A DNA stretch of 64,000 nt from Haplodiscus bocki (GCA_965655095.1 OZ296653.1:26908001-26972000); one strand, 5' to 3'; shown: positions 6,991-45,858, counted from the first letter of the stretch. Program-made: numbers and translations. Notes: generated by a model from the sequence alone, not told the origin.

Positions 6991-7010
6991 ACAGATTGGA
7001 GCCTGATTGG
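6654..7010 (+). mobile_element. Truncated LTR 5' fragment of Gypsy family B
   Basis: Begins TGTCGCAGGCTGCCGCCTGTGACGG, as do the LTRs at 39581 and 45520, and follows the 45520 LTR to ggaacctgattggtaaaaaca. Confidence 0.85.
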
Positions 7011-7014
7011 TAAG

Positions 7015-7199
7015 TAAGTTTGTATATGTAGGTATAACGTATTCTCTAAAATGGGGGAAACTTGTCCAGCACTTACATTCAATTGGATTTTAGAATTTTT
7101 TATCTTCAAACAAGGGCAATGAGTTGGTTTGTGTACCTAGCTGTGTGTTGCTATAGTTTACCGTGTAGACTTGGCCGTCACAGGCGGCAGCCTGCGACA
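7015..7199 (-). mobile_element. Inverted truncated LTR 5' fragment of Gypsy family B
   Basis: ccgtcacaggcggcagcctgcgaca (ending 7199) is the reverse complement of the LTR start, with the same flanking LINE sequence as 6654 and 45520. Confidence 0.85.
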
Positions 7200-25098: not shown

Positions 25099-27059
25099 TG
25101 TCGCAGGTTGCCGCCTGTGACGGCATGATCTACTCCGTCAATTACAACGGGCAGAACTCAGTCACACAGAGCTACGCTCTGCCCTTATTTGAAGACTAAT
25201 ATAATAGAACTAGCCTTTAATAAACCGCTGGAAAAAAACCCCCCACCACTTTGAAGTTATATTTTTATATATACTTATATACTAATATATAAATATATAT
25301 ATATAATCTTACAAATATTTATGTATTTATGCGCAAAATCCATACAAATATCGATGAAGCTTGTATCATGAAGGAAAGGTCATAGACAAATGTTTATAGT
25401 GCTCAACTTATTTGCAGTCTTATACTCAAATTTGATTGGTCAAAGACAAGCGATCGTATCAAACACTGACCAAACAGAAGCGCCGCCTAAACATGGTCAA
25501 AATTGGTCACTGGGACCTAATTTTGACCACTTTGCTCAGTGCCAGTGGTCGCTTCCAAACGAAAGGCGAAATACGGCCAAATGAAACCAGAAAGCCAATG
25601 TATGAACAGACATAATTAAAAATGTTGCTATGTACTTATATAAACATATAATTATGTGATTATGTGTTGTAAAATTATTTAGTGCCAATAATTATTAAAT
25701 CCTGAGTGAAAAATATTACCTAGTCAAAAGACGGTCATTGTGCCCACTTTTGACCACCATACTTTGACCTAAAATTAAAACCTGTGTATAAACCTTAATA
25801 TTATAATCATTGCCATATTTAGTATATTATAACTATATTTAACCATCCATTATATGAAATAAGCATGCAAACATGGTTTTATTATCCCTGAACATTTATC
25901 CAGTTTCCATGACCATATTTTGGTGGTCATGGTTTTGCGGCATATATTCTTTGATGCTACCCATATTACTATTTTTAAAACTAACGTCATGATGACGAAA
26001 CATATATTTCGGGTTAAACCTCTTTGATGTTGTTTATATTACTATTTTTAAAACTGACGTCATGATGACGAAACATAGTTCGGGTTGAACCCCCTTTGAT
26101 GTTTAATATAAATAGAACCCGAGGACATGACGTCAAAGAAGTGAGCCCTCCAATTGGACAGCGAAGATGAGGAAAAGGGGGCGAACCTAAAAGAAAAATC
26201 ATCGCCAGAAGAGTGTTTTTCCATCCTGAAAACAGTTCACTGTAACGATCATTTAAACTGATGCAATTTATTTGTGGATTATCTGTATTGTAAGAGAAGA
26301 AAACTGCCCTCTTCAAAACAGACGATTATAATACTCTTTGAAACTGACATTATTCTTTGTCCCTGTTAAAACACTTTACAAACATTGTAACTTGAAGTAT
26401 CATTTCATTTTTGTGTCACTGTTGACTTTCGCTGTTATTACAATTCAGTTATTAAACAAACATGGTTTCTACCAGAAAGAAAAGGCAGTCAAGCAAAAGA
26501 CTCCTCAACCAATTAGATGATTTTGATCAGGACGTGATCATTGGCAACACCACAAGCGAGAGGCCAGAAAATGTTGTGGTCAATGGGGGTGTTGATGACC
26601 AGGATTTTACCGGTGGTACTTCTAATGTTAGTTCAATAGTTAATGAGAACGCATTGAATGTGAAAACTTTGGAAAGGTGTTTTAACGAAAGGATTGATAG
26701 GGAAATGAGCAATATTGTGGACACAGTTGAAGATAGGATACAGAATGCGGTTTTGACCGCCATTGATAACATTGTCACTCCTAAAATTGAATTAGCTATT
26801 AGGTCAATAAATGCATCCTCTGGACAAGATGTGACCAGTGCGTCTGGAAACTCAGAACGTAGGGAATATGAGGGGATTAACGCCTCTTTTGAAAACGCAT
26901 CTGCAAACAACAGAACATTAGGTATGGCTAATACGAACGATGAAACTCGCCACGATTTTCATGACGGAGTGAGCGAATTACCGGTCTTAGAGGCACAGTT
27001 TGACCGGCAACTAGCTACTCACCACATGCCGTCAGGAGCTAGTAGCGAAGTTCATCACA
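25099..27059 (+). repeat. 5' LTR of family A element
   Basis: TGTCGCAGG...GAAGTTCATCACA. Colinear with 39581-41541, differing by about a dozen substitutions counted by eye. Confidence 0.95.
25964..26160 (+). promoter_or_regulatory. Putative LTR promoter/enhancer: ~73-bp direct repeat x2, CRE-like TGACGTCA (26055, 26128), TATAAATA (~26107), CCAAT (~26150)
   Basis: Motifs read directly. TGACGTCA also occurs about 300 nt upstream of gag in the family-B LTR (46637). Function is inferred. Confidence 0.45.
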
Positions 27060-28435
27060 TGGTGACAGGAGTTAAAGAACGCCACGACATGCTGACAGAA
27101 GGTTCACAACAGATACACAACCGTCATCACATGGTGACAGGAGTTAAAGAACGCCACGATATGCTGACAGAAGGTTCACAACAGATCCACAACCGTCATC
27201 ACATGATGACAGGAGCTAAAGAACAAATTCATAACCACCATGACATGGTGGCAAGAGGTGCAGAAGAGTTTCGCAATAGTCATCACATGGTAACAGGACA
27301 AACAGCCCACATAAACCAAATCCCTGAGTTCTTGACTGGACGCACTCAAACATCACGCAACCCGTCATCTCACCAATATCAGAACCTGTCAACACAAGTA
27401 TCACAAGACAACAATTTACCAGTGGTCGAACATACACCAACACATCAAAATTTAGACGCAAACAACTCCATCAATCGTCTAGCTGACGCAATTGCTGGAA
27501 TTACCACCCAACAACCATCACAAGCAACCATAATGCTCAAACCAGTATCCACAAGCACACTATCTTTCGATGGCAAAAATGAGAAATTCGAACTATTTGA
27601 AGACCTTTTTCACACAATGCTCAAAATGCAACCTGAAAAGACAGAAGCCATGAAAATTAACCATTTTCATGCTCATTTACGAAAAGAAGCACTTCAAACA
27701 TTCAGAAACATCAGTGCAGTCAATAAAAAAACTCTTGATGACGTATTAATTGTTTTCCGACGCAAATATGTCAAACCCGAATCACAAGCTACAGCTAAAC
27801 ACAAATGGCACAAACTTACATTCGATCCCAATACAAAATCACTCCCTGATTTCTTAGAAGAGCTCAACGAATGTGCCGAAAAAGCGTTCGGTGACAACGC
27901 CCAACACATGATTGACAGCTTATTATACGCAAAACTACCACCCCATTTGAAAAGATCACTCAACTTAGCTCATTTGGAAAACGGCACGTATGACCAGATA
28001 GTGGCACATCTTGAAAGAGAGCTAGAACTCAGCGGCTTAGAAAATGATGGTGAGTTGACAATACCCACAATGACAACCGTTCCACTAAATGATAACCAAC
28101 AAAACACTGAACAAACAAAAGTAGTATGCTACTACTGTAAAAAACCAGGCCACGTAATCCGAGATTGCCGTAAACGAATGAGAAAGGAACAGGAACGGGG
28201 GAATGATCCTTCAACCCAAAAGATGAAACCTTCGACATCTAAAACATATGCACCATGTCCTCATTGTCAACGGACAAATCACCCTCCAGAACAGTGTTGG
28301 AGCGGTCCTAACGCCGCTAACAGACCTAAACGGTTCAAACAGGCGTATCCAGAAGACAATCAAAATGATGGGCAAAACCATGGGAATTTGACCTATTCAG
28401 GACCATCATCAATTCTCAAAAACTCTTTAAACTAA
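26462..28435 (+). CDS. gag: Gag polyprotein (657 aa) with two CCHC zinc knuckles; start codon lies inside the 5' LTR
   Basis: CYYCKKPGHVIRDC and CPHCQRTNHPPEQC knuckles, capsid-like FDGKNEKFELFEDLF region, and position upstream of pol. Confidence 0.92.
   Translation: MVSTRKKRQSSKRLLNQLDDFDQDVIIGNTTSERPENVVVNGGVDDQDFTGGTSNVSSIVNENALNVKTLERCFNERIDREMSNIVDTVEDRIQNAVLTAIDNIVTPKIELAIRSINASSGQDVTSASGNSERREYEGINASFENASANNRTLGMANTNDETRHDFHDGVSELPVLEAQFDRQLATHHMPSGASSEVHHMVTGVKERHDMLTEGSQQIHNRHHMVTGVKERHDMLTEGSQQIHNRHHMMTGAKEQIHNHHDMVARGAEEFRNSHHMVTGQTAHINQIPEFLTGRTQTSRNPSSHQYQNLSTQVSQDNNLPVVEHTPTHQNLDANNSINRLADAIAGITTQQPSQATIMLKPVSTSTLSFDGKNEKFELFEDLFHTMLKMQPEKTEAMKINHFHAHLRKEALQTFRNISAVNKKTLDDVLIVFRRKYVKPESQATAKHKWHKLTFDPNTKSLPDFLEELNECAEKAFGDNAQHMIDSLLYAKLPPHLKRSLNLAHLENGTYDQIVAHLERELELSGLENDGELTIPTMTTVPLNDNQQNTEQTKVVCYYCKKPGHVIRDCRKRMRKEQERGNDPSTQKMKPSTSKTYAPCPHCQRTNHPPEQCWSGPNAANRPKRFKQAYPEDNQNDGQNHGNLTYSGPSSILKNSLN
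27020..27307 (+). repeat. In-frame tandem array of eight LTR-end/primer-binding-site-like units (CAYSAYA-TG(G)TGACAGGAG consensus); active PBS at 27060
   Basis: Units start at 27020, 27053, 27083, 27125, 27155, 27197, 27239 and 27281 (spacings 33, 30, 42, 30, 42, 42, 42 nt) and encode H(H/D)M(V/L/M)TG-like peptides. Confidence 0.85.
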
Positions 28436-28500
28436 AAAAGCCACGACTCCAATGGGCAGATTACACATCAGTCAGACAATATGTTATATCTGACCCACCC
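28426..28500 (+). promoter_or_regulatory. Programmed -1 ribosomal frameshift signal (T TTA AAC plus downstream stem)
   Basis: Heptamer 28426-28432 is in correct X XXY YYZ phase immediately before the gag TAA. The -1 frame is open from there into the pol ORF. A GTCAGA...TCTGAC inverted repeat lies at 28471-28494. Confidence 0.85.
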
Positions 28501-31500
28501 CCTACAATATATCACTCTCATCAAACCCTCAACACAGGAATTCCATCAGTTGTCTGGCAGCAACAAATGGAAAAAGCCTATATTCGAAGATACAATACCA
28601 CGCATGTCATTCACAAAACATATCCAGCGTACGAATACGACTACACAGACAACTTCGACACTTACTTCAGACCCCTTGCAGAAGTCGTTGCATACGACCC
28701 ATACTTTGTTGACCCTCAATATGGATTGGATCCCTATTGGGATGACGAAATTTATGATCAGGACAAATTGGAGTACAAAGATACTTACAATAAACCTAAT
28801 GATCAGATCGAATCCGATGATCCGATCACGGATGCACATGTATCACACGCACTACGATACGCAGTGATAGATTTATGGACAGTCAATCCACAATTACCTG
28901 ACACATCACCGTTACCACACTTCCGACCGAGACCACCAAACCAACAAAGGCAAAAAGCAGTCATCGATGACCAAATTTTACCACAGCTCCAGGTAACGCC
29001 AGACGGACTCACAAGGTTTCTCCCGCTCTCAACAAATTTGCCATTAAAAAATAAACGAAAAATGCTTTATTTTCCAATGGATTTCGGGGAGTTAAATATT
29101 GATGGCCTCATAGATACAGGTGCTTTGTCAAGCGCCATTCCGGAAGCCGACTTACGCAAAATTCGATTACTCGCCCCACATACAATATTAAATGAAGGCC
29201 CACCACCTGAGTTCCAAATTATGGTTGCCAATGGACAGTTAGAAGCACCTACTGCAACAGTAGAATTGCAATTCGAAGTCGGTGACATTACGTTCAGAGA
29301 AAAGTTCATAGTTATGACGAACCTCACAAGCCCTTTGATCGGTCTCTTATTCCTACAACGCAACAGTACTATTCTAGATATGCGTCAAGGAATTCTGAAT
29401 TTTCCCTTCTTTTCAATGCAATTGAAAAATGAAGATCGGACATACCCAAACGTTATTGAACCCATAATCAACCCAGTAGATACTACGCTACAACCGGGAA
29501 AACGAACCACAATTTGGGTAAAATCACAAATTTACACGGAAAACGAAGCGACAGGCATAATCCAACCTTCGCCACTTCTGGAAAACGACGAAGATCTCCT
29601 TATTTGCCCAGCAATTTCGTCAACCCAAAACAACAGACATATGGTCCAAATCAGCAATTTTCTAGACCATCCGTATACTCTCAAAAAAGGAACACATATG
29701 GCAAATTTCTCCATATTGACTCCTGAACAAACAAAGCACATTCGACCAGTCAACCCTACTTCGGTGAGACATTTCCTCAACAGTAATCACGATGACGCTA
29801 TTCATTACATAAATAGCCTTCTGAAGACATCGCAACCGGATGAAGTCAATGAGACCTACTGGTTTCCAACGACACAAAATCCGGGCAATGAAAAGGAACA
29901 TACGCCCATACAGACACGCATTCTTAATGAACTACGAGAATTGGAACAATTAGAAAAATTAAATCCACTTGAAAATACCAAATCCCGAAGCCAATTTCTA
30001 TCTAATTTCGATTGGACAGATTCTACTTTACAACCGGATGCCAAACAAGCCGTTGAAGACCTGCTCGTGGAATTTCATGATATCTTTGCGCGACACCGTT
30101 TTGACATCGGAATCAACACAGAATTCAAAGTACAACTCACACCACTAGACAATAGGCCTGCTTACAGTCAAAGCCTCCCAGCTCCGATAAATCTCAAAGA
30201 TGATATCCTTGTGGAACTAGCCCTATTACACAAGTATGGTATCATCACAACACTACCCTTCAGCAAATATGCTAGTCCAATATTCGCACAAAGGAAACCA
30301 AATGGGAAACTACGCCTATTAGTTGACCTTCGGAAAATAAACACACTTATTGCAGATGATTACATCAACAACAACCACCCAGTCAGTACATTAACAGATG
30401 CAGCACAACACATGGCTGGGAAAAATCTGTTCTGCAAACTCGATTGTTCCCAAGCATATCATTGCCTCCAAATGGCCGACCAACAATCAATTGAGCTCCT
30501 TGCATTTAATTTTGCAAGCAGAACATTCGCGTACCGAAGATTGGCACAAGGACTTAGCCGTTCCCTATCAGCATTTTCAAGCTTCATACGCGAATACCTC
30601 GACCCAGTCATCAAAGCTGATCAATGTGCACAATACGTCGACGATATTGGCATAGCCGCCAATACCCCCGAACAATTAATCAAAAACTTACGAGCAGTTT
30701 TCCAATGCTTGCGGAACGCTGGCCTCAAACTCAGCGTGACCAAATGCCATTTCGGAGTACAAGAAGTAGATTTCCTTGGACGAACAATAACAACCAAGGG
30801 GGTTGCCCCTCAAAAACAAAAGATTGCTAAATTCCTTGAAAAAGTCAAATTTCCACGATCCAAAAAAGCACTCCAACGATACATCGGATTCTTGAACTAT
30901 TACCGGAATTATATACTTAGATTGGCAGAACGGCTCACCCCGTTCTTCCAGCTACTCAAAACAACCGATGCCAAAGACAAAATACCGATTACACCTGATA
31001 TCATGAAAGAGTTCAGGGAAATAAATGACGCTTTAGACCGATGTTGCCAATTGGCATTACGTCAGCCATTACCCGGTAAACAACTGGTCCTAATGACCGA
31101 TGCAAGCTTTCAAGCAGCTGGTTACGCAGTATTAATTGAAGACGATCCAAACCAAAAGTTTACTTCAACACGCAAAACTTACGCTCCTATAGCTTATGGT
31201 TCAAAAACATATTCACCATCCCAAATCAAAATGCCCATCTACGCAAAAGAAATTTTAGCCATCTATATGGCCTTCAAAGAATTTGGACATATCTTTTGGG
31301 GCGCCACTAAACCAGTGATCATCATGACAGACAGCAAATCGGTCACCAGATTCTTTCAAACAAAGATGATCCCCCCACCCTTATGGAATGCCTGTGACTT
31401 TGTATTACAATTCAACTTTACTATCGCACACATTCTAGGTAAAATGAACACTGCAGCAGACTTCTTATCTCGTTTGGAGATGGACCCTAATGAAAAAATC

Positions 31501-33790
31501 ATTCTAAAGATCAGAGAAGACATTCAAATAAAACCAATCGAAGTAAACATTGAATCTACAGGCATTGCACAAGAAGAACCGGTCTTCTTTGATCCCACAG
31601 ACCAACAAGAGACCACGGAAAAAGAACTCTGGAAACGTAAAGAAGAAGTACGAAATGCCATACCTAATGAACCACCAGTCATAACAGTGTCCTGTTATTA
31701 CGCCAATGACCTACACAAAGATACAACAATTGTGAACATAGCACAATTGACGAAACCATCACGCATACTCATCGAACAAGACTCAGATCCAACCCTACTA
31801 AATTTCAAACGTGAAATGCTGGGATTACCATTTGACGAACAAATTTTACTAAACGACGCACGTTACATGCACTACTCCAGAAACAAGAAGCGTATCATCA
31901 TCAAGGATGACATTCTCTACCGACAAAACTATAACGATATCGGCGAAGTCAGTCACCTACAAGTCCTTTTGCCCGGACAATTACTTAAAGTGTTATTACA
32001 ATCATTACATGGGACAGCTGGCAAACACCCAGGTATCTCAAAAATGATGCGAGAAATTCGTCAGAAATACTATTTCACTTCAATTGCACCCCACGTTCGA
32101 AACTGGGTTCGTGACTGTGAGATATGCATCCATGACAAACGCATAAACAACACACGAATAACCCCAGAAGTAATCCACATCCCAGAATGGGACCTCGGAC
32201 CAGAAGATCTCATGCAAATTGACTTATTGCCAGAATTACCGCCAAGTGGAGGTTATGAAAATATCATTACGGCGATAGACGTATTTTCGAGATACGCATT
32301 CGCCTATCCAGTATCTAACCCCACAGCAGTAAATACAGCCAAAGTTATCATAGACATTATGACAAGACATGCTTATTTGCCTACCCTCATTATAACAGAC
32401 AAAGGAAGCGTTTTCGTCTCCCAAATCATACATGAAGTCGCTGAAATATTGGGCATCAATTTGAAACATGCCACAACAAAACATGCACAAACCATCGGAG
32501 TCCTAGAACGGGCCCATGCCACAATCAAGACCTCCTTGAAAATGGCATCAGGCGAACACAGAAAACAATGGCATAAATACTTACCTATCGCCATTTTGAA
32601 TTACAACACGACATACCATTCCAGTATCGATTGTGAACCAAGCCGAGTATTCCACGGCAGAGTACCACACAATATTTTAGACCACAAACTTGGATTAAGA
32701 TTCAATCCCAATATCACACCTACTACAGACTTTGCTGAAGAATTACTACGGCGAACCAAAATCCTCTACGACAAAACCAAGAAAAACGTCATGCAGTCAT
32801 ATATCAAATACAAACGATATTACGATAAAAAAAGCAAAAGCTTCACCTTTAAAAGAAAAAGATTACTGCTTTATCCTTCAGCCAAATGCAGACCATCAAG
32901 GGTCAAAAATACCGTTCCGTGACTTCCGATGGATTGGTCCCTACATAGTAGAAAAAGTATTACCAAACAATAATTACATTGTGCGAAAACTCAACACAAA
33001 CAAAACTCAGATTCTACACAGAATTCGTCTCCGAAAATACAACCCTGAAAAACGCCCTGAAGCTAATTATTCGGAAGTGCCATGGCAAACCGACGACAAT
33101 ATTGTTGTCCCGCAGGACGATTTATATACAATTGCATGGGAAGCTGAATTCGGCGGACACCTCTTTGATCTTCCCATCATATATACCGATCCCAACGCAA
33201 TTGACTTTGATGAAAATCACACACAAGGACCAGATACAGTCATTGTCCCACGCTCTTATTTCCAAAACTCAAACAATGGTCAAAATAGGGAAATTTGCCC
33301 CATTTCTGACCAACCAGTACCGCGAACTTTAACACCTACATCGAATGGTCAAAATCAGGAAATTGAGACCAGTACTGACCCAACTCAAAATGATAGCACC
33401 AAACACATTTATGACTCAAGTACCGACGCTGAAATTACATGTAAACCTGTCACACAACCACCATTAACTATGAGTGACACTTCATCAACGCTTGATGACA
33501 ACATTCCCACAGCTGAAAACACTTCCAAAAATGAGTCCGACCACTCTCGAGGCGGTAAATACAACCTACGCCCCAATCCCAATCCTAATTACTCAGAAAT
33601 ATACAGATATCGATGTGTGCAACATTTTATTTTCAGCCCCATTTTTGCGCGTCATTATCATTTTTCATTCTATCTTTTGCGCACACTCTACTCATTTCTT
33701 TCCTTTTTCTTTTCTTGGGGCATATACAAAATTATCAAGAACGTCAACAAAGCCAAACTACAATCAATCAAAAAACAACAAACTAATTAA
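28426..33790 (+). CDS. pol: Pol polyprotein (protease, RT, RNase H, integrase with GPY/F tail); one frameshift at an A7 run (~32827-32833)
   Basis: LIDTGA (protease), LRLLVDLRKIN / KLDCSQAYH / YVDD (RT), TDAS (RNase H), H-x5-H...CEIC and QID/TDKG/LER (integrase). The frame continues as KAKASPL...RWIGPYIVEK in ORF 32732-33790. Confidence 0.93.
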
Positions 33791-33815
33791 TAACAACAAC
33801 AGCTTTAATTAAGAG

Positions 33816-36800
33816 TCAGGACGATTCAGTGTTCGAAGTTTTGCGCTTTGATCGCAACTTCCCAGATAGCAAATCAGCTACTCCACGATAATGCGTCTTA
33901 CTAATATCGATGCGAGGCCGCTGCGCTGGACGACGACGCTGTTCTGGTAGTCTCTCAGAGACAAACACTGGTTCACTCAACGATGCAGATGACTCCACAT
34001 CACTAGCAACCTTCACCGCCTTGTATGATTTCTCAAGCTCAGCTCGAATTTTCTCATAATCGTGATAATTGACAAATTCCCAGGGATTATAACCACACTG
34101 CAGAGCACAATCGCCAAAAGTCTCGAGCAATTCCATGCAACACGAAATCGACTCGGGATCAGTGAAAAAGTTCTCCTCAGTATCACAACCCAAAAGATAC
34201 CCCTGCAGCGGCTCCACAACTGACGACAAATCAACACTCGCCACTCCAACTTTACTTGAGCCAAGCGAAACATCAGGCACTTTTGGGGTAATATGACCCA
34301 AACACAAACAACTCAATTTGAACAGATCCCATGTATACTGTCTGCGTGACAATTCAGGGCAAGACGACAGGAAAGAGACCATATCGTCAACATCTGGACC
34401 AACACCCAACTCGTTCAGATAAACATGTCTCACATCGTCTACGAACTCTATGTAGTCGTCAGCGTGCACGTTCCGCAACTCCCGTGCAACCCAACCCCGG
34501 GAACTGAAGCTTTGGAATAAATGTTGGAAGCAGTCAACAGCAACAGTCTTCGGTAACTTGAACAAAACTCCATAATCAAAGCAAGCTAGCCCAATAACCA
34601 AGTCTGACTTGAATGCGGGATGTCTCACTAACTCCTTAACCACATATTTAACGTATTGTCTGCCCTGGTCAATGAAAGGATTGAAAGACTCGCCCATCAC
34701 CGTCTTCGCCACACTATCCGACTTCGCCTTCTTCCCACGCTCACGCTCCACATCAATTTTTGTCTTGGCGACCTTCAACACTTTGGACCGGAATTCTGTC
34801 TTTCGCATAAATTCAAAGATGCTCAACAGCTCACCCACAGAAAAATCAAAGGATCGCAATGCATCCCAATCCCATTCAGATGGCAGACAGCCACGAGACA
34901 CAACCCTCCGCAACAAACGATGTAAGAAGTCACACAGTTGACCGCACAAGAAAAACCCTTGGTCACGACTGGGCACTGTTGACCGTTTGAAAGCCTCCCG
35001 GTACTCTTGCACAATCACTTTGAACAGTTCCAGACGAGCTTCGAAATAAGGATCACCAGTGACTTGACTATCCAAAGCTTGAACCTAAAATACGAGACAA
35101 TTAAAAACGTTATCACTTGCATTCAACCACATAACAACTATACCCACCCTCCCCTGCACGTGCTGGAACTCTTGACGTTGACTAGTACTGCTGATATATG
35201 CCACAATTTGGGGCCAATGCGCAATCATCTCTTGAACAACAAGGAAAGCAGTGCACAACTCTAATTTTCCATCTTCCAGAGCCTGCAAACATACAATTAT
35301 CAGTCAGCACTTATACTACCAAGACAACCAAAGGGCAACATTACCATTACCTACCATTCTGAAGTACTGTGTTGACTGCACCCAGCGTTCATCGAGGAGC
35401 CCTTTTAACCGCAACAAAAGAGCACGCAACATCGAACACATGTCGATCCTCCCCATCACACTGAAGCTGGGTTTGTGCAACAAACGCTCAAACTGCATAG
35501 GTGTCAACGAAAACGGGTACTGAACACCCGCCTTCCGACCAGGACTTTTATCCAGAACTTTCACAAAGTCAGCATTTGAGCCGCCACAACAAATGATGGT
35601 CGCATCGCCAGAAATCGCACTCAACAATCGGGAAACAAGATCAATATAGCTTTTTGTGGGCGGAACATCCCTTCCACAATGTAACATGGGCAGGCACACC
35701 AAACGCTTGCCCTCCCAAAAACACAGACTCAATGTGCGGCGATGTGAGCTCACAGAAAATTCAATGGAGTATGCCCCCTCACGAGCAATACTAGATGACA
35801 CATGTTTCACCAACTCCAGAAACAGATGATGCAGCAATCCCTGAAATAGCACAAATCGCATGAAAATTAATACCCCCCATACTCCAGCCGGTCAAATACA
35901 AAAAATCCCGACGACTTTTGACTCTACATGTAATACCCACCCAAACAGACTATCAATCCATGGGCAAAAGATGGCACAAATACCAGATTATGACCATAAC
36001 AAAATATGCTCATATACGTACGGAAATGTGGCTCGAGCTCCAATTGAAGTCAGCAGTGCTCGCAGAATGACCCGTCAACACTCCCACCTGGGTCCAGTAC
36101 TCCTCCAACGTCCACAATTGACCTCCTCCACGCAGGAAAATTAACAACAACTCAATCTGTATCAAAGTCCGTGAATTTACAGAGGTAAATGTAAAGGGCT
36201 TCTCTTCCACAACATAATAGAACGGACGTTTGTGATCCAACTCCGGCACATCCAAGTGCATGAACAGCTCCCTCTCCGCTTCCAACTTCGACCCATACAG
36301 TGTACGTCCATCCGAGCCACGTACCTTTGAAGGATAGTACCGGGCACGAAACCTCTGATCAGCCCTCAGATGATGCTCCCGTTGGAAGTGGCGCTTCAAC
36401 TCATATAATCCTCGAGATCTCATGGACACGTTCCTCCTACAAAGCATGCAGTAGAAGCAATGACGGTTCTTCAATGGGTTTTCTGGACCAGTAGCAAAAA
36501 CTTTCGCAAACGGGGCGAGCTCCAGCATCTCCTCGGTGAAAACATACCCACCACCATCTGACCCACTGGGCGAAATTGGGTTCGGTCGACCTTCTCGTGA
36601 CCACTTATACAATTCACCTTTTTTCAGCACATCGGAACGAATTTGCCCAAGAGTCTTCAAACTGTCCGTGTCATTAAATTTGTTCACTTCTGTTCGAGAG
36701 AAACCCAAAACTGCATCTGCCTGACGACTCGAACATGGTTGCTGTAATTGATCACTATCCAATGATTCCGTAATTGTTGGCAAAGAATAGAAAGATCGAG

Positions 36801-37935
36801 AAGCCACACTATCCACAACTGTAGACCCTGACCCACTACGTGAAACAGACCGCCCACTTCCCCTCTCACCAACATTTCTCCCAGGCTTTCCACCAATCTT
36901 CAAAAGAATATCCTCCAGCATTCCAAAAGTGGCCAAAGAAACTTCTAATCCGACGGCCCTGGCAAATTGTATCATTTGATCCGAACTCAGTCCGGTCAGT
37001 TGCTGATGCGGATCCAATTGCACAGGCGGATTGTCAGCGAAGCACTCTTTCAACAGGGTCCTTGCAGACTCACTGGGGTAGTATTTCGACCGCCCACCAC
37101 CCAAACCAGGCTGCGCTGTGGCTCCAGAAACAGCTGGAAGATCAGACTCTACAACTTCAAAAACCCACCCCCCACTCAAATTATCGACTCGTCTTCGGGC
37201 AATTGACTCCAACTCTGACGTACCATACTCTGTGTCATCCAGTCGGGAACTACTAGGGAACGACTGCCCAGTATCTGACATACCAATCACAGGATATCTA
37301 TTACACACCGATTTCCCAATTGAGTCTTCCACATCAAATGCCACACTTTTTGAAGGCCGTTCATCTGCCACGTCAAGCTCCCCATCACACAACGGCCGCT
37401 TCATCCCGACACCAATCTCCTGGCCCCCCAACTCCGCACGCAAAATCTTATCCACCTGACTCCTGGGAAATTCATTGTCACCAGTTACCATGCCACGCCC
37501 TGTATTATCCCGATTAACCAGATTCGAATCCAGCAACTCAAGCACTCCAGCAGGATCAACCTCCGCAATACTCTCTATTCCATCACCCCCCAGCGCTTCC
37601 AGTTTATCTCGCAAAAACTTCTGCAGTCCTTCACTTCCTTCGTCACTACTCGACAACAGACACTCTTGACTACCAACAGCAAAACTCTCCTTATCCACAT
37701 TCCCGCGTTCTTCACTCATTGTCTTTTTACCACCCGTCACTTGCAAGACTGCCAAACTTTTCGACGGAGAAGTTCCTGTCTCCTCAATCATCACGATTTC
37801 TACTCCGCTCCTCCGGGGAAGATCGGGGTAGTTCTCACTTTCTTCAGTGTTGCAGTCTTTAGGCACGTTGGATTCGTTCTCTAAACAATGGAAACTGATA
37901 AATTTACGTGGCAACTCGCCAGCATATTCGCCCAT
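33816..37935 (-). CDS. Predicted spliced antisense gene, ~1267 aa, BED zinc finger / hAT-transposase-like; exons 37935-36022, 35840-35355, 35282-35148, 35084-33816
   Basis: Four consecutive minus-strand ORFs are joined in frame by three phase-0 GT-AG introns: TCC|GTACGT..TTTCAG|GGA, ATG|GTAGGT..TTGCAG|GCT, AGG|GTGGGT..TTTTAG|GTT. FYCMLCRRNVSMRSRGLYELKRHFQREHH is a BED-type C2H2 finger. The start codon is uncertain (first ATG used; the frame is open to 37983). Confidence 0.75.
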
Positions 37936-38898
37936 TTCGAAACCGGATATCCGTAGAGGAAACACGTGTTCGTTCAAAATCAAATCTATCGCGTGTTATC
38001 CTAGCAGTGAAGAGAGAAAAATTGCTCTGGCCAAGCAATCAAACTGCCTTCACTCATCAAGTAGTTCTTGATTCGACATATTCCGACATAATAAAAAGTA
38101 TCACAAAACCCAACACTCACCCATTCAGTAACAGCGATGAAATCTCTGGATTCTCTAAGGACGCTGGCTCTGTCTCCAATTTGTTCGAACACAAGTTAGC
38201 AGAATTCCAAAAACAAGTCCAAAACACGTGGTAAAACAAACAATAATCAATTCAATCACAATTCAAAAACAAGATAATCGAATGCAATATCAATTCAAAG
38301 TTAAACAATTTCAAGAGATGAGAGAGTCGTGGCTGTATAATATGGATTTTGTCATATTATGGTCATTATTGACATGATATTTACCTATCTAACTATATCT
38401 ACATATTTACAAGCTGGGTCAACTTCTGCCAGAGTTGCCCAATATTTGACCTTCGGAATTTCCATCTTTACAACTTTCATCAAAACTTCATTCATTTTCT
38501 TTAATTTTCCTTCGCATCATTATGCTTCACGCTCATTGGCTCTCACTGTTACAAAAGGTGAGCTTACACTCATCAAAGTGAAGTGCCGCTTCAGATTCAC
38601 TACCACGGTCACTTACGGTTATTGATGACCACTTGAAATCCAAGAGTCAATACAACTGTGAAATAAATTACTTAATATCAAAACATGATTTCTTTTAACC
38701 TAACCGCCTTAACCCAACCAACCCTCTCAATTCAACGAAAGTCAAAAACCCGCCATATTTTCCCCAAAAAAACCCTTCAGAATTTTACCCAACTTTCATT
38801 CATACTTTCAGTCTTCAACAAAAACGGTCGCTTTACTTCAAAACTTAGTTTATTCAATCACGGCACTGAAACATTTCAAGAAAAGAGCCTTCGCACAT

Positions 38899-39681
38899 AT
38901 GACTACCACATTCCGTATAGAAGGAGATGAAGAGCCCATGGCAACGGAGCCGATATATCTCTCAAGCGATGAGAGCGAATATTCGACTCCCAACACAACT
39001 CCAGATCACCAACTTGAATGCATTCATCCTGACTCGATCAACCAGTTGATAGCCTCACAACTGGAACAACGGTCAAATATGGGCGCAGAGACCATCGTCT
39101 ACCCGCCAACCCCAAACACGTCTATAATCTCTGCCGACGACGACCCAATGAACCCCACTCCAATAATTGGAAACCCTGATCACTATACGCCTCAGATCCC
39201 ACCCAGACGCCATCACCCAATACAACTTTGCCAACATGTGCAACCTATCCCCGATACGCCGCAATCTCCAACCCCGGAAGATCGTGGGCAGTCAGACGAC
39301 TTCTATCCCGACAATATCCCACTACACAACCCCCCCAATATTGTAGCAGTAGCAGACGACTTGCACAACCTAACATTACACCCTCATCCGCACCGTAACG
39401 AAGTGGTTACAAGTTGTTTGGTATGTGGCAAATCATACGACCAGGTGATCGAAGAAACTGTTGCAGACTACCTCGATCAGACATCACAAACGGGTGAGAC
39501 AGTGCGGGAACGACAAATCAAGAGAAATGCATTCATCGATGGCGTTCAGAGCGGAGTCTTCACTTTTATCCTCCCGGGAGTGTCGCAGGCTGCCGCCTGT
39601 GACGGCATGATCTACTCCGTCAATTACAACGGGCAGAACTCAGTCACACAGAGCTACGCTCTGCCCTTATTTGAAGACTAA
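38899..39681 (+). CDS. Accessory ORF3 (260 aa; Pro/acidic low-complexity N-terminus, CLVC motif), terminating 101 nt inside the 3' LTR
   Basis: ATG-initiated open frame followed by AATAAA at 39701. The C-terminal SQAAACDG..Y..NY...LPLFED peptide is conserved in the family-B LTR. Confidence 0.7.
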   Translation: MTTTFRIEGDEEPMATEPIYLSSDESEYSTPNTTPDHQLECIHPDSINQLIASQLEQRSNMGAETIVYPPTPNTSIISADDDPMNPTPIIGNPDHYTPQIPPRRHHPIQLCQHVQPIPDTPQSPTPEDRGQSDDFYPDNIPLHNPPNIVAVADDLHNLTLHPHPHRNEVVTSCLVCGKSYDQVIEETVADYLDQTSQTGETVRERQIKRNAFIDGVQSGVFTFILPGVSQAAACDGMIYSVNYNGQNSVTQSYALPLFED

Positions 39682-41541
39682 TATAATAGAACTAGCCTTT
39701 AATAAACCGCTGGATAAAAACCCCCCACCACTTTGAAGTTATATTTTTATATATACTTATATACTAATATATAAATATATATATATAATCTTACAAATAT
39801 TTATGTATTTATGCGCAAAATCCATACAAATATCGATGAAGCTTGTATCATGAAGGAAAGGTCATAGACAAATGTTTATAGTGCTCAACTTATTTGCAGT
39901 CTTATACTCAAATTTGATTGGTCAAAGACAAGCGATCGTATCAAACACTGACCAAACAGAAGCGCCGCCTAAACATGGTCAAAATTGGTCACTGGGACCT
40001 AATTTTGACCACTTTGCTCAGTGCCAGTGGTCGCTTCCAAACGAAAGGCGAAATACGGCCAAATGAAACCAGAAAGCCAATGTATGAACAGACATAATTA
40101 AAAATGTTGCTATGTACTTATATAAACATATAATTATGTGATTATGTGTTATAAAATTATTTAGTGCCAATAATTATTAAATCCTGAGTGAAAAATATTA
40201 CCTAGTCAAAAGACGGTCATAGTGCCCACTTTTGACCACCATACTTTGACCTAAAACTAAAACCTGTGTATAAACCTTAATATTAATATCATTGCCATAT
40301 TTAGTATATTATAACTATATTTAACCATCCATTATATGAAATAAGCATGCAAACATGGTTTTATTATCCCTGAACATTTATCCAGTTTCCATGACCATAT
40401 TTTGGTGGTCATGATTTTGCGGCATATATTCTTTGATGCTATCCATATTACTATTTTTAAAACTAACGTCATGATGACGAAACATATATTTCGGGTTAAA
40501 CCTCTTTGATGTTGTTTATATTACTATTTTTAAAACTGACGTCATGATGACGAAACATAGTTCGGGTTGAACCCCCTTTGATGTTTAATATAAATAGAAC
40601 CCGAGGACATGACGTCAAAGAAGTGAGCCCTCCAATTGGACAGCGAAGATGAGGAAAAGGGGGCGAACCTGAAAGAAAAATCATCGCCAGAAGAGTGTTT
40701 TTCCATCCTGAAAACAGTTCACTGTAACGATCATTTAAACTGATGCAATTTATTTGTGGATTATCTGTATTGTAAGAGAAGAAAACTGCCCTCTTCAAAA
40801 CAGACGATTATAATACTCTTTGAAACTGACATTATTCTTTGTCCCTGTTAAAACCCTTTACAAACATTGTAACTTGAAGTATCATTTCATTTTTGTGTCA
40901 CTGTTGACTTTCGCTGTTATTACAATTCAGTTATTAAACAAACATGGTTTCTACCAGAAAGAAAAGGCAGTCAAGCAAAAGACTCCTCAACCAATTAGAT
41001 GATTTTGATCAGGACGTGATCATTGGCAACACCACAAGCGAGAGGCCAGAAAATGTTGTGGTCAATGGGGGTGTTGATGACCAGGATTTTACCGGTGGTA
41101 CTTCTAATGTTAGTTCAATAGTTAATGAGAACGCATTGAATGTGAAAACTTTGGAAAGGTGTTTTAACGAAAGGATTGATAGGGAAATGAGCAATATTGT
41201 GGACACAGTTGAAGATAGGATACAGAATGCGGTTTTGACCGCCATTGATAACATTGTCACTCCTAAAATTGAATTAGCTATTAGGTCAATAAATGCATCC
41301 TCTGGACGAGATGTGACCAGTGCGTCTGGAAACTCAGAACGTAGGGAATATGAGGGGATTAACGCCTCTTTTGAAAACGCATCTGCAAACAACAGAACAT
41401 TAGGTATGGCTAATACGAACGATGAAACTCGCCACGATTTTCATGACGGAGTGAGCGAATTACCGGTCTTAGAGGCACAGTTTGACCGGCAACTACCTAC
41501 TCACCACATGCCGTCAGGAGCTAGTAGCGAAGTTCATCACA
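39581..41541 (+). repeat. 3' LTR of family A element
   Basis: Direct repeat of 25099-27059, followed immediately by the TSD ACGTC. Confidence 0.95.
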
Positions 41542-41552
41542 ACGTCCATTAG
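40944..41552 (+). pseudogene. Gag N-terminal ~199 codons carried by the 3' LTR, running into flanking DNA and stopping after NVH
   Basis: Near-identical to Gag residues 1-199; diverges exactly at the LTR end. Confidence 0.85.
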
Positions 41553-42498
41553 CTTTCGAAGTCTTCACTTCCTGTGGGTAATTCACTCATCAGATCGCAG
41601 CTTTTGATTAAAATTTCACAAAAAATTAGTTCGAGTTCTACGGGAAGTGAAAGAAGACTAGAATGTAAATTTCGCAATCACAAAGGGTACATGAAAGCGA
41701 ATTCAAAAGCAGTGGTGATTAGACAAAATTTACTTGATACAATTAAAACGGATATTGTAATGATCAGGGTACAATCTAACTCGAGTCTACCTTACCAACA
41801 ATAAGGTGGCGAAGTGGATGAAATTGAAATGTCAGAGTTTGTTTACATTGTCAAAGATAAATGTTCAATTGCAAATATTGAAATTGTGAATACGTAATTT
41901 GAAGAAAGGATCAGCATTCGGATCCGTTCCCTTATCTCGGTTATCTGCACAAGGGTTTTTGAATACAACAATAACGCAGCTGGTAACCAAAAATTTCTTT
42001 CCCTAGTTTTCTCAGTGTTCTTCGCAAATCCCATTATCGGTCCACAGGATGCACCAGGCATTTGGAGGCTCCTCTGGTCTTCCACTTTCAGAGCGAGGTC
42101 TCGAGGATTTTCCCTATTAATTGATCAAAACGCATTTTTCCAGGCGAAACACGAGCGCCTAAGTTGTCTTCGTTCTCAACATATCGACGTTTTCTCGACC
42201 TGATTTTGCAATTATCAAAACAAAATTTTCAACTCGTTTCTGTGATCCCAGTTTTTGTTGTTATATTTTTTACTTGAACTTTTTTGTCATTTTTTGAACG
42301 CTTCCAACGATCTGCTTCTCTTTCTGTGTTCCCAACAAGTTTTCTATTGGTGCAATGTCCTTTTCAGAAGTCGAAAGGGAAGGAACATTGACGGATAAAT
42401 ATCGTCAGCAATACAGTCTAAAAATACACCAAAAATCAAGCATGCTACATGATAACTGAAAATCGAAACTTTTCCATGAAAATTTTCTTCTCATTGAT

Positions 42499-43560
42499 CT
42501 CGATCGTATTTCTGATAATAGGGGCGTAGAAGGTTGGAAGATAATGGTTGGCTTCAAGGTATGTGGTAAGCCTGTTTACAGCATTGCCAAAATTGGCTCA
42601 ATTCGACTCAGTGTGGTGGATACGGTGGATTTCGCCTTCTACGTTTGGTTTACATTTGGTGGGGGCACAAGCAAAATAGGACAGGTATACACCTGTGTCA
42701 GAGGGCTTCGTGTACCAGTATAAGCTCAACCTGTTTTGGCTGCGGGTAACCAGCAAGACCAGAAAAGCAAGTTCGCTGTGTGTTTCATGCTCAATTGTGA
42801 ATTCAAGATTCAGATGGAGCGTGTTAGCTGTCTTGAACACGTTTTCAACCTCGTCGCGTCTTACCGACCGTATAATGTTGTCCACATAACGTGCGAATAT
42901 CTTCGCTGGAACAGAAAGGGGGTTCAACCATGTTCCAATGGGGTGTTGTTTGCGAGCATCTTCACGTCCATTCGCATTCTATTGATCTTCGAAGTTCCGA
43001 AATCGAGAGCCTGGTGCATCGGCGGTGAAACCAATCACCGCAAATGCAACATTGAACTGAATTACCTCCAACGTTTCCGCTGCATGCCCCGCATGGAAAA
43101 AGCACATTTGCCACGATTGGGAAAGCTGTCCCGGGTCTGTCATTCTGCATGAAATTTCCTCTTCCTGCAATCACAGTTCCAAACTGTTTCATCCAAATGT
43201 TTGCCTGGTAAACAGCAAGTTTTGACCCCATCGGCAATCAATCTATTTGCGAGCTTTGCCCAATTCAGCCTTCAAGAGGCGTCTCTGGAAATTCTGCACA
43301 ATGGGGGGCTCGAAACACCCGTTTTTTGGGATCCGGAATCTAAGAAAATTCGGGATCACATCGTTGATCAAACACTCTTCCAAAAAAAATGCACAGCTCA
43401 GTGTTTTGTGTCGTCTGATTGCATTTTTGATACGCCGAGAAAAGATTCCACTTTTTGCATAGGAACAATGTCTTTTTCAGAAATCGAAAGCGAAGAAACA
43501 TTGACGGATAAATATCATCAGCAATGCAGTCTAAAAAAACACCAAAAATCAAGCATGCTA
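42499..43560 (-). mobile_element. Second copy of the Penelope-like RT remnant with PHD finger (lacks the GIY-YIG part)
   Basis: Same ORFs as 3731-4687 (PMGSKLAV, CGAC..WFHRRC, RYVDN). Confidence 0.85.
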
Positions 43561-45858
43561 CCGGAATTTTTTCAGAACAATTCCGGAAATTTTTCGCTCA
43601 AAGTCCGAAAACGATCAAGAATGAACAAAATTTTTACGAGTTAAAGTATGTGGAAGTCCTCCTCCGAACACATAGAACTGCTTTGACAACCCCGCTGACA
43701 CCTAACCGCTCAAATTCCGGAAATATTTGTAGGTTCATGAATTTTGTTTCAAAAGTTTGTCCCCGATCCTCTGGGTGCACAATATTCTTTTTCAACATTT
43801 CAATCAAAAGTTGTTTTACCCAAAGTCCCAAAAGACTTCGCTGAAAGCCCAACAAAAATTATGAGCTTGTCGTTTGTTCTCGATTGCATCCCAGAACTTT
43901 CTTCTTGACACGTAGAAAGCAATTGTGACCATCTTGCAGTAACATTGTTGTCAACCGGCTGAAGATAACTGAAAATCGAAATTTTTCCAAGAAAATTTTC
44001 TTCTCATTGTTTCTGTGGAGAGGTTGAATGCAGTTTTGAAAACCCTTCCTAGAAATTTTAGCCTAATGTTTGTAAACTTTCTGATCAGAAACGAATAGTT
44101 TTTGACTCAGAGTCCGAAAAAGAACAACAGTTCAACGGGAATTTTTGAGAAAATTCATTCAAACTTTTCCCCCGGACACTTAGACGGCATTTTTAACAAA
44201 AACAGCTGAAAAAAATTCTTCCATAGTACGAAAAATTATGAGTTTTTAGAAAAAATAAACCTTCGAAAAAGTTCTCCATGACTATTAGAACGCAGTTTTG
44301 ACAACACCAATTCATAATTCTTTGCTCGAAGTCCCAAAAAGTATTGGTTCGCATTTCTTCGAGTTTTTTCCTAAAAATATTCCACTGGAAATGTAGGAAT
44401 CAATTTTCAGAACACTACCAAAAAACTTCCTTGCCCGAAGTGCGAAAAAATTTTGAGTATCAAAAACTTCTGGGCTGAAAAGGTCCTTCTGTGTTCTTTG
44501 AAATTTTTGGTGAGAACCCCAGCGAAACAGCGGAATTTTCTTCTGCGCAACGCCAGAATAAATTTCTAATTTTTCAGATTTTCTCAAAAAAATGTTTTAT
44601 GAAAGTCAGTTTTCAGAATAACAGTCTTTGTCCAAAATCGAACATTCTGAGCTAATATCGAGCCTCCTTGCACCCCAGGGTACCTATGTTTTTCTTGAAG
44701 TTCGAGGCAAGTACCTTTTTGTGCCATTTCGTATCAAACGTCGACAGAGATCATAGCAGCGCTGCTGCACCTCTTGTAAATGTCTATACTCGAGCGTACC
44801 GAAGGCCTCACTCAAATCTTTTTAAGGGCTTTATTTCATTTTTTTTCGTCTGGAACTGCATTTTATTTCTTTTAATATAGCCAATGCGTCAACAGTAGAT
44901 TGTTTTCAACGAAAATCGAATTTCTTGTCATAGAAAAACTAAATATTTCCGTGTATGGGTACAACCTTTCATACAGTATTTTTTCCAAGATTTCAAATAT
45001 ATTCGAGCAAGAATACAAGTCAATGGTTGTTCTAATCGTTTGCAGGGCTTGCCTTATATCAGGGAAGAATTCTGATACCTTTCAAACGCTCGGGAAAACG
45101 CCAGTCACCAAGGAAAAATACCTTTTATTTTAAATGGGGTGTAAACCTCAGCCTCACTTTTCCGTAACAGTACATTGTTTTTTTCATCAATCTCGCTCGA
45201 TTGCTTGTTTTCCAAACATATAGTAATTTTAACGCATTTTTCGTGCGGAGTCTGAGGCAAACGTATAGTGTGATTGACCTTTCTTACAGCAACTGAAGCA
45301 ATATTAACTTTCTTGTTCATCGGCTCTGATACTTTCGAACCGAGTGACAAAGTGTTTATTGACATGAAGTTTCTGTCCTTAGAATTGACAAACTTTCTCC
45401 CGTAGTTTCTAGGCTTGTCATTTCTTATTCTTATCACTTTTTCTACGGAGTTTGCGAATTAATTTGAATACTCCCCTGGAATCCCTAAAACATTTTTGAA
45501 TCTTTCGAAAAATTGGTTTTGTCGCAGGCTGCCGCCTGTGACGGCCAAGTCTACACGATGAACTATAGCAATACACAGGCAGGTACACAAACCAACTTAT
45601 TGCCCTTGTTTGAAGACAAAAATTTTCTAAAATCCTATTAAAGGTAAATGCTGGACAGATCCCCCCCCTTTAGAGAATACACTTTACCTACATTTATAAA
45701 CTTACGTATATTTATATTCCTAGATACATATTTGATTAGTGTGTAAATTCCATACTAACAGCAAGAGCGCTAGCATCAATTGGGAAAGCAAATCAAACGA
45801 ATATTTACAATACTTAACTAATGAACAAATACTGTACTGGAACCTGATTGGTAAAAAC
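42499..45858 (+). repeat. Segmental duplication unit X, copy 2 (Penelope remnant, LINE remnant, family-B LTR start)
   Basis: Direct copy of 3631-6990, near-identical in the Penelope part and more diverged distally. Confidence 0.9.

What the first reader, a model, noticed from the sequence alone, without database searches (positions are those of the whole stretch)
38899..39706. Accessory ORF3 overlaps the 3' LTR start and its C-terminus is conserved across diverged LTR families
Seen: the last ~33 codons lie in the LTR. Family A reads SQAAACDGMIYSVNYNGQNSVTQSYALPLFED*. The family-B LTR at 45520 reads SQAAACDGQVYTMNYSNTQAGTQTNLLPLFED, with the same length and spacing despite heavy nucleotide divergence in the rest of the LTR. 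Both ends of this LTR are therefore coding. Inference: a real, selected protein of unknown function (possible metal binding via H/CLVC/C), placed like the U3-overlapping accessory genes of complex retroviruses (nef, sag). The AATAAA at 39701 would need to be bypassed by full-length genomic RNA.
Basis: partly seen in the sequence, partly recalled or inferred. Interest (0 to 1): 0.7.

Follow-up and report, generated by a model that had tools for sequence, protein, structure and literature searches.

The report
Retrotransposon accessory gene overlapping its LTR
A gypsy-type jumping gene of an animal carries an extra, conserved protein-coding gene with no known relatives that runs into its terminal repeat, as HIV nef does, and whose protein likely acts as a nuclear regulator through a predicted SUMO-binding motif.

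Summary
Confirmed, with corrections. ORF3 (38899-39681, 260 aa) lies in an intact 16.4-kb Ty3/gypsy element (25099-41541, 5-bp target duplication). Its last 32 codons and stop lie in the 3' LTR. It is a real gene: dN/dS between subfamilies is 0.07-0.19, close to pol, also for LTR codons 237-260, and full-length homologs at about 30% identity occur in other genomes. The most striking part, SQAAACD, is mostly a DNA constraint: codons 216-237 lose synonymous variation and hold a short purine run plus a 9-bp hairpin at the LTR end, as at the polypurine tract/att site inside HIV nef. The AATAAA at 39701 is absent from many subfamilies, and the histidines are not conserved. Distant homologs keep a SIM-like motif (10 of 13 against 1 expected), a C-x(7-8)-[DE][ST]PxSP motif and a CxxC-plus-two-helix domain with no Pfam, PDB or ESM Atlas match. 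ORF3 sits back to back with antisense ORFs that are also under purifying selection. Best reading: a non-env regulatory accessory protein from an internal promoter that engages host SUMO, likely against silencing. That function is inferred only: there are no RNA or binding data.

The parts
38899..39681 (+). ORF3, 260-aa accessory gene (acidic, net charge -26; 2 Lys; no transmembrane segment)
38950..38979 (+). SIM-like motif PIYLSSDESE (aa 18-27): hydrophobic core followed by Ser/acidic run
   Evidence: SIM definition from PMC12751080 passages
39217..39270 (+). central conserved motif aa 107-124 (P-I-x-x-C111 ... P-D-T-P-x-S-P); the C111 segment is missing in some subfamilies
39409..39558 (+). 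predicted folded core aa 171-220: C173-x2-C176 followed by two helices (pLDDT 84-97)
39544..39609 (+). dual-use cis element in codons 216-237: synonymous variation suppressed; includes purine run GGGAG (39576-39580, presumed plus-strand priming site) and the LTR start
39582..39603 (.). 9-bp hairpin/inverted repeat with 4-nt loop at the LTR left end, encoding SQAAACD
39610..39681 (+). LTR-encoded tail aa 238-260 plus stop, constrained at the protein level
39701..39706 (+). AATAAA, present in only part of the subfamilies
37996..38898 (.). non-coding spacer between the divergent antisense ORFs and ORF3; conserved blocks including ATTGG (reverse CCAAT) at 38535-38539; candidate internal bidirectional promoter
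36010..37995 (-). antisense ORF (661 codons stop to stop) with a zinc-finger-like C-terminal part
35316..35891 (-). antisense ORF (191 codons), probably an exon of the same antisense gene
33816..35084 (-). antisense ORF (422 codons), probably an exon of the same antisense gene
39581..41541 (+). 3' LTR (1961 bp)
25099..27059 (+). 5' LTR (99.3% identical to the 3' LTR), containing the first ~200 gag codons
26462..28435 (+). gag (Retrotrans_gag weak, zf-CCHC)
28369..33790 (+). pol, PR-RT-RH-IN order; in this copy it lies in two frames (28369-32922 and 32699-33790)
27060..27071 (+). PBS-like TGG-starting site directly after the 5' LTR, inside gag
45520..45617 (+). start of a family-B 5' LTR carrying the homologous tail codons, not part of an ORF3 here

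Best explanation
[quoted passage not shown] Shown: the gene is under purifying selection; codons 216-237 double as a DNA/RNA cis element at the LTR end; codons 238-260 are held by the protein. Inferred: ORF3 is transcribed from an internal promoter in the 900-bp spacer that it shares back to back with the antisense ORFs. The protein would be a long acidic disordered arm (SIM-like motif, Ser/Thr-Pro motif) on a small CxxC two-helix domain. The arm would dock on SUMO-modified chromatin or silencing factors, and so titrate or displace SUMO-dependent repression and keep the LTR promoter active. Because the tail is copied with the LTR at each round of reverse transcription, the gene end and the LTR end are inherited together.
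For: Selection: column-wise dN/dS 0.07 (A1 vs A2) over aa 156-260 and over aa 237-260; A vs B over aa 237-260 pS 0.75-0.87 against pN 0.29-0.34; shifted frames 0.67-4.8 where computable outside the hairpin. Shared variants pN/pS 0.14 (aa 154-215) and 0.33 (aa 238-260) against 0.99 for singletons in the tail, Fisher p 0.008 (108 loci). ORF3 0.12-0.19 against pol 0.10-0.11 and gag 0.19-0.22 in three natural pairs. Full ORF in 22 of the 30 closest copies. Same gag-pol-antisense-ORF3-LTR layout in 6 of 8 fetched elements, 3 of them family B. Homologs: 365 proteins at E<=0.001; three tested have best matches of only 44-54% in this genome, so they come from other genomes. SIM-like motif in 10 of 13 representatives against 1.0 expected from shuffles; it is kept while the flanking aa 31-100 diverge (pN 0-0.24 against 0.07-0.43). 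The host has a SUMO gene. SUMO/SIM scaffolds serve transposon silencing in Drosophila (PMC8490990 passages) and viral SIM proteins counter host repression (PMC12751080 passages). Spacer: conserved non-coding blocks; TGACC 5 observed against 1.1 expected there and 11 against 1.8 in the LTR; ATTGG also upstream of a 30%-identical homolog.
Against: There is no expression, localisation or binding evidence of any kind. The SIM pattern was written after seeing the sequences, SIMs are loose motifs, the 13 representatives are related by descent, and 3 of 13 lack it. The window's core PIYL has only two of V/I/L. An acidic hydrophobic patch could equally be an activation motif. The protein has 2 Lys and no obvious nuclear signal. 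The TGACC motif was also picked after the fact. The frame from the SIM-like motif to the end is open in only 30 of 69 mid-range and 1 of 10 family-B-like copies; this fits decay after insertion but shows that most older copies are broken. The model outside aa 171-220 is low in confidence (mean pLDDT 61, pTM 0.35).
Confidence: 0.42

Rival explanations
1. ORF3 is a Tas/Tax-like transactivator: the acidic arm is an activation domain and the CxxC two-helix domain binds, directly or through a host factor, sites shared by the spacer and the LTR.
For: Net charge -26 with hydrophobic-acidic patches. The TGACC motif is enriched in both the spacer and the LTR but not in gag-pol. Foamy viruses use an internal promoter and Tas response elements in both it and U3 (PMC3798896 passages).
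Against: No DNA-binding fold was matched; few basic residues; the strict Ser-Ser-Asp after the hydrophobic core fits a SIM pattern more closely than a loose activation domain. Not exclusive with the best explanation.
Confidence: 0.22
2. ORF3 acts after transcription, like CERV or Rev: it helps export, protect or package genomic RNA, possibly through the conserved hairpin at its own 3' end.
For: A novel phospho-regulated accessory protein exports Cer1 genomic RNA (PMC10309623 abstract). ORF3 has a conserved [ST]PxSP motif, and the element probably has spliced antisense transcripts. The hairpin is conserved.
Against: The protein is strongly acidic with no Arg-rich RNA-binding stretch beyond one short basic helix face; the hairpin lies at the att end, where reverse transcription and integration suffice to explain it.
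Confidence: 0.14
3. ORF3 is a partner of the antisense zinc-finger-like protein or of integrase and tethers integration or regulation to SUMO-marked chromatin.
For: ORF3 and the antisense ORFs travel together and share higher synonymous divergence than pol in family B (pS 0.75-0.88 against 0.46-0.49), as expected for one exchanged cassette.
Against: B_L066 keeps LTRs, gag, pol and ORF3 but has no antisense ORF match; no interaction data.
Confidence: 0.12
4. The conserved frame is a by-product of nucleotide constraint at the LTR end and no functional protein is made.
For: True for codons 216-237: commonest-codon share 0.955-0.96 against 0.74-0.75 elsewhere; S-Q-A-A-A use the same 5 of 5 codons in a 30%-identical homolog against 22 of 65 elsewhere.
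Against: Near-saturated synonymous divergence with low dN on both sides of that segment, only in this frame; conserved start context and stop position; C-D-G are kept through three synonymous changes in L163.
Confidence: 0.03
5. ORF3 is an env-like or small fusogenic membrane protein for cell-to-cell spread.
For: It sits at the env position, sense strand, upstream of the 3' LTR.
Against: Highest 19-residue hydropathy is 1.35, in the cis-constrained segment; the N-terminus is acidic with no signal peptide; no env family match.
Confidence: 0.03

Closest known systems
HIV-1 nef overlapping the polypurine tract, att site and U3
   Same: Sense accessory ORF running through the plus-strand priming site into the 3' LTR, with synonymous sites frozen at the PPT and integrase attachment site (PMC2666660 passages), as here at codons 216-237.
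   Different: No sequence or fold match; host element is Ty3/gypsy without env; only 32 codons lie in the LTR; the purine run is 5 nt and is followed by a hairpin; no N-terminal Met-Gly.
Foamy virus tas/bel2 region
   Same: Accessory genes between pol/env and the 3' LTR expressed from an internal promoter with response elements shared with the LTR (PMC3798896 passages); inferred here, not shown.
   Different: No homology; the presumed promoter here is a non-coding spacer between divergent genes, not inside env; bel2 running into U3 is recalled, not read.
Plant Retand/Grande (Tat lineage) elements with antisense ORFs
   Same: Long pol-3'LTR region with conserved antisense ORFs; Grande gene23 is nuclear and has its own promoter (PMC11963269 passages; PMC7264820 parts 1-2 of 3).
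   Different: Animal host; no TRP28 match; an additional selected sense gene that enters the LTR.
CERV of C. elegans Cer1; ORF3 types of bdelloid LTR elements
   Same: Non-env accessory proteins of animal LTR retrotransposons (PMC10309623 abstract; PMC5408684 passages).
   Different: CERV comes from a spliced mRNA and exports RNA; bdelloid ORF3s are env, GDSL, DEDDy or TM proteins. None matches this ORF3, and an LTR overlap is not mentioned in what I read.
Viral SIM-containing regulators (HSV ICP0, KSHV K-bZIP, LANA)
   Same: SIM-like motif in a disordered region of a virus-like element's regulatory protein (PMC12751080 passages).
   Different: No RING or bZIP domain and no homology; binding untested.

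Membership tests
Ty3/gypsy LTR retrotransposon (Metaviridae) | pol order PR-RT-RH-IN with gypsy-type RT | tested here: met
   Pfam order; best PDB sequence matches include Ty3 RT at E 1e-28
Ty3/gypsy LTR retrotransposon (Metaviridae) | two LTRs with TG..CA ends and a short target duplication | tested here: met
   1961-bp LTRs, ACGTC duplication
Ty3/gypsy LTR retrotransposon (Metaviridae) | PBS after the 5' LTR | tested here: inconclusive
   TGG-starting site directly after the LTR in most fetched elements; the matching host tRNA was not looked up
Ty3/gypsy LTR retrotransposon (Metaviridae) | polypurine tract of 8 nt or more before the 3' LTR | tested here: not met
   only the last 5 positions are purine in 96-100% of 110 loci, preceded by pyrimidines; 8-49 nt range from PMC7264820
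env / env-like ORF3 | signal peptide and transmembrane segment | tested here: not met
   highest 19-residue hydropathy 1.35, acidic N-terminus
Nef / Sag / Tas / Bet retroviral accessory proteins | sequence homology to the family profile | tested here: not met
   no such Pfam match for the window protein, 24 close members or 14 distant members; no PDB sequence match under E 0.65
Nef / Sag / Tas / Bet retroviral accessory proteins | shared fold | tested here: inconclusive
   models of moderate confidence; best Z 4.0 and 4.8 on generic helix pairs; no Foldseek match at E<=0.001
Nef / Sag / Tas / Bet retroviral accessory proteins | sense ORF overlapping U3 of the 3' LTR | tested here: met
SUMO-interacting motif (SIM) proteins | four-residue hydrophobic core with adjacent acidic/Ser run in a disordered region | tested here: met
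   10 of 13 representatives against 1.0 expected; region low in pLDDT; pattern written after seeing the data
SUMO-interacting motif (SIM) proteins | non-covalent binding to SUMO | not testable with these tools
zinc-binding domain | four conserved ligands in contact | tested here: inconclusive
   C173 87%, C176 92%, C234 95%, C111 96% of rows that have it; C111 segment absent in some subfamilies; C234 lies in the cis element; model coordinates could not be inspected
foamy-type internal-promoter cassette | transcript starting inside the element upstream of the accessory gene | not testable with these tools
   no RNA run was listed; conserved non-coding blocks only

The most novel reading that the evidence does not exclude
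A Ty3/gypsy lineage has independently evolved a complex-retrovirus architecture: a bidirectional accessory cassette whose sense gene is welded to the LTR end and encodes a SUMO-reading anti-silencing factor of a new protein family, a retrotransposon counterpart of the herpesviral SIM effectors, aimed at the SUMO step of transposon silencing.
Probability: 0.25. Interest if true: 0.85.

Novelty: new variant of a known kind. Interest (0 to 1): 0.6.

Why it matters
Accessory genes of LTR retrotransposons are mostly unexplained, and few transposon-encoded counter-silencing proteins are known in animals. Here an unannotated protein family, selected about as strongly as pol and spread over several genomes, comes with a concrete and cheap test (one short motif, one host SUMO). 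The overlap also repeats the nef arrangement in a non-retroviral lineage, with a short purine run and a hairpin in place of a standard polypurine tract, which bears on how plus-strand priming and the LTR end are defined. The lineage is abundant: 1501 exact copies of the 25-nt LTR start in this genome.

Tried and rejected
Expression: no RNA holder listed; the four listed runs behave as genomic contigs and the listed joints include no GT..AG skip (94 further joints not shown), which says nothing on expression. SUMO-ORF3 complex prediction: tool not available, no result. Search for poly(A)-tailed ORF3 copies: not run. Fold searches: nothing significant in BFVD, PDB Foldseek or VIA-wide; absence does not show a new fold. 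ESM Atlas: no usable hit for aa 150-260; P0266 gave only scores under 0.9. Pfam and PDB profiles: no credible match. IMG/VR: 20 pattern matches, none confirmed; phage records: no RT match. Hairpin covariation inside this genome: 1501 unchanged, 16 and 94 single changes, 3 exact double changes against 1.0 expected, inconclusive; the 94 are at a CpG. AATAAA as a conserved poly(A) signal and a TATA/short-R model built on it: rejected as family-wide. His ligands: rejected. An upstream 60-70-codon extension seen in predicted proteins: treated as non-coding, since the region has frame-breaking indels and a conserved downstream ATG context; not tested by dN/dS. Host lineage: the BBS5 gene in the window is at most 59% identical to named animal proteins among 120 listed, so the host is an animal of undetermined lineage; an acoel guess was looked up (passages of PMC9911081) and not established. 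Earlier scan findings: none. Literature searches (listings only unless cited) showed no description of this protein or of this overlap in a gypsy element; subscription papers, repeat databases and supplements were not seen.

Full report
THE ELEMENT. The finding lies in a complete LTR retrotransposon at 25099-41541 (16,443 bp). The LTRs are 1961 bp with 13 differences, begin TG, end CA and are flanked by the duplication ACGTC. Gag (26462-28435) starts inside the 5' LTR; pol has the order PR-RT-RH-IN and Ty3 RT is among its best PDB matches. Between pol and the 3' LTR are three antisense ORFs (33816-35084, 35316-35891, 36010-37995), a 900-bp spacer and ORF3 (38899-39681). The host is an animal with a 1.5-Gb assembly; its BBS5 is at most 59% identical to named proteins among the 120 listed, and its lineage was not determined. 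The exact 25-nt LTR start occurs 1501 times in the genome, the reversed control 0 times.

THE OBSERVATION. Both peptides, the coordinates and the AATAAA are as described. Codons 229-260 and the stop are inside the LTR. Contigs of run X1 break off at 39581 into unlike flanks (62 contigs, agreement 0.37), confirming the boundary. The LTR at 45520 is a 5' LTR followed by gag and encodes no ORF3. Of 30 family-B LTR loci fetched, one (L041) had ORF3 upstream at 57% identity. Searching with it gave 9 family-B ORF3 loci among 30 fetched. Eight loci were extended to 20 kb: six show pol, antisense ORFs and ORF3 in the same order (three family B, three A2), B_L066 lacks the antisense ORFs, and B_L061 shows only ORF3 and its LTR.

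IS IT A GENE? Yes. With 30 A1, 21 A2 and 9 B copies, column-wise NG86 gave dN/dS 0.07 for aa 156-260 (A1 vs A2) and 0.12-0.18 against B; for the LTR codons 237-260, pS 0.54 and pN 0.06 (A1 vs A2) and pS 0.75-0.87 with pN 0.29-0.34 against B. The two shifted frames gave 0.67-4.8 outside the hairpin. Natural pairs gave ORF3 0.12-0.19, pol 0.10-0.11, gag 0.19-0.22 and the antisense ORFs 0.07-0.18 (three A2 pairs; B pairs are saturated). The full ORF is open in 22 of the 30 closest copies, but from the SIM-like motif to the end in only 30 of 69 mid-range and 1 of 10 family-B-like copies. All these loci were picked by best score among some 4,100 candidates, which favours intact copies.

WHAT HOLDS THE OVERLAP. 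Two different constraints. Codons 229-236 show no difference at all between the groups' commonest codons. Over 110 loci the commonest-codon share is 0.955-0.96 for codons 218-236 against 0.74-0.75 on either side. In a metagenome homolog only 30% identical (L163), S-Q-A-A-A use the same 5 of 5 codons, against 22 of 65 elsewhere, and 19 nt from the LTR start are identical. The segment folds as a 9-bp hairpin (z -2.7) preceded by only five purines. Among 251 stored homologs with the motif, V231 and T233 occur together in 7, alone in 2 and 9; the two changes fall on the bases that close the loop and would be compensatory. Five of the seven are distant proteins that may be one or two events, their DNA was not seen, and within this genome the double change (3 against 1.0 expected) is inconclusive. 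C-D-G are kept in L163 through three synonymous changes, so the protein also matters there. The same split is reported for HIV-1 nef at the polypurine tract and integrase attachment site (PMC2666660, passages). That the LTR starts at the same codon in distant elements is inferred; L163 is too short to show it. The AATAAA sits at the homologous place in 28 of 29, 25 of 64 and 0 of 9 copies by falling identity and is not a family trait.

THE PROTEIN. A profile of 24 copies found 365 proteins at E<=0.001 among 1.84 billion representatives (150 listed); a profile of 14 mostly distant ones found 85. None carries a name or Pfam domain. Several distant clusters have 27-136 members, as expected for active families. 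Three distant proteins match this genome at only 44-54%, so the family spans other genomes. Among 65 rows under 45% identity the conserved positions are S22-S23-D24 after a hydrophobic core, P107-I108, C111, P116, D119, P121, S123-P124, C173, C176-G177, Y191-L192, T195, E200, A211, G215 and 227-236; no His reaches 60%. AlphaFold2 folds only aa 171-220 with confidence (pLDDT 84-97; CxxC then two helices); the LTR-encoded tail scores 37-61 (first model). Fold and family searches found nothing significant. The protein is acidic (net -26) with no transmembrane segment. Of 391 stored proteins, 157 had the full layout and collapsed to 13 representatives under 65% identity in the C-domain; 10 of 13 carry a SIM-like motif (for example IIYLSSDDEE, IICISSDEES, VVVVSDDEDS), shuffles predict 1.0, and P0231, P0232 and P0496 lack it. 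The pattern was written after seeing the sequences. It fits the published definition of a four-residue hydrophobic core with acidic and phosphorylatable Ser residues, which the same review calls a loose motif (PMC12751080, passages). The host encodes a SUMO. Binding could not be modelled.

EXPRESSION. No RNA data exist in reach. The spacer keeps conserved non-coding blocks across A and B, including ATTGG, which also lies about 450 nt upstream of the distant L163 gene. TGACC is enriched in the spacer (5 against 1.1) and in the non-coding LTR (11 against 1.8) but not in gag-pol (15 against 12) (motif chosen after the fact). Most subfamilies start three codons upstream in an A-A-A-G-C-x-A-T-G-G context. 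An internal, probably bidirectional promoter is the simplest reading and is inferred.

MECHANISM AND ODDS. Real gene: about 0.95. Function: SUMO-engaging nuclear regulator, likely anti-silencing, 0.42; transactivator 0.22; RNA export or packaging 0.14; partner or tether of the antisense protein or integrase 0.12; env-like 0.03; no protein 0.03. The SUMO link to transposon silencing is from Drosophila (PMC8490990, passages); whether this host uses it is unknown.

COMPARISON. By placement it works like nef (MMTV sag recalled only); by presumed expression like foamy tas/bel2 (PMC3798896, passages) and plant Grande/Retand accessory genes (PMC11963269, passages; PMC7264820, parts 1-2 of 3). It is a member of none of these protein families by sequence. 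Non-env accessory genes are known in animal LTR elements (PMC10309623, abstract; PMC5408684, passages). Five literature searches listed no paper on this family; repeat databases, subscription papers and supplements were not seen and may hold the element.

VERDICT. A genuine, previously unannotated accessory protein family in a nef-like overlap with the LTR: a new variant of a known kind. Interest 0.6; 0.85 if the SUMO-directed anti-silencing role holds.

Noticed in passing
window 26462-27270: Gag starts about 600 nt inside the 5' LTR, and the LTR-end/PBS junction (CATCACA|TGG) is itself gag coding sequence, repeated in at least six degenerate tandem copies (HHMVTG-like repeats).
   Followed up: partly
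window 33816-37995 (-): Three antisense ORFs under purifying selection (dN/dS 0.07-0.18) with GT..AG-like ends between them, probably one spliced gene; a weak Spin-doc zinc-finger match (E 0.017, below cut-off).
   Followed up: partly
window 33816-39681 against L093/L094 and L099/L100: Synonymous divergence of the accessory cassette to family B (0.75-0.88) is much higher than that of pol (0.46-0.49), suggesting cassette exchange by recombination or constraint on pol codons.
   Followed up: no
window 38049-38061, 38566-38578 and LTR right ends: The motif ACTCATCA occurs twice in the spacer and also forms the LTR right end in other subfamilies.
   Followed up: no
L095/L096 (G000:C8:37205501-37225500): A family-B element with both LTRs, gag, pol and ORF3 but no match to the antisense ORFs.
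   Followed up: no
window 1332-2375 (+): Intronless BBS5 gene, at most 59% identical to named animal proteins; one unnamed JGI protein is 76% identical.
   Followed up: partly
window 3630-13076, 13087-17362, 17592-25101, 41544-45862: Large local duplications and inversions: 3630-6996 matches 42497-45862 (95%), a 4.3-kb inverted repeat at 13087-17362, and a tandem array of about 2.3-kb units at 18.3-25.1 kb into whose end the element inserted.
   Followed up: no
window 51441-52824 (+): Fragments of a more distant gypsy RT/RNase H (about 38% to this pol).
   Followed up: no
G000, LTR position 15: The G of a CpG at the LTR start is changed to A in 94 copies against 16 for a non-CpG C-to-T change, consistent with CpG methylation decay in this host.
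   Followed up: no
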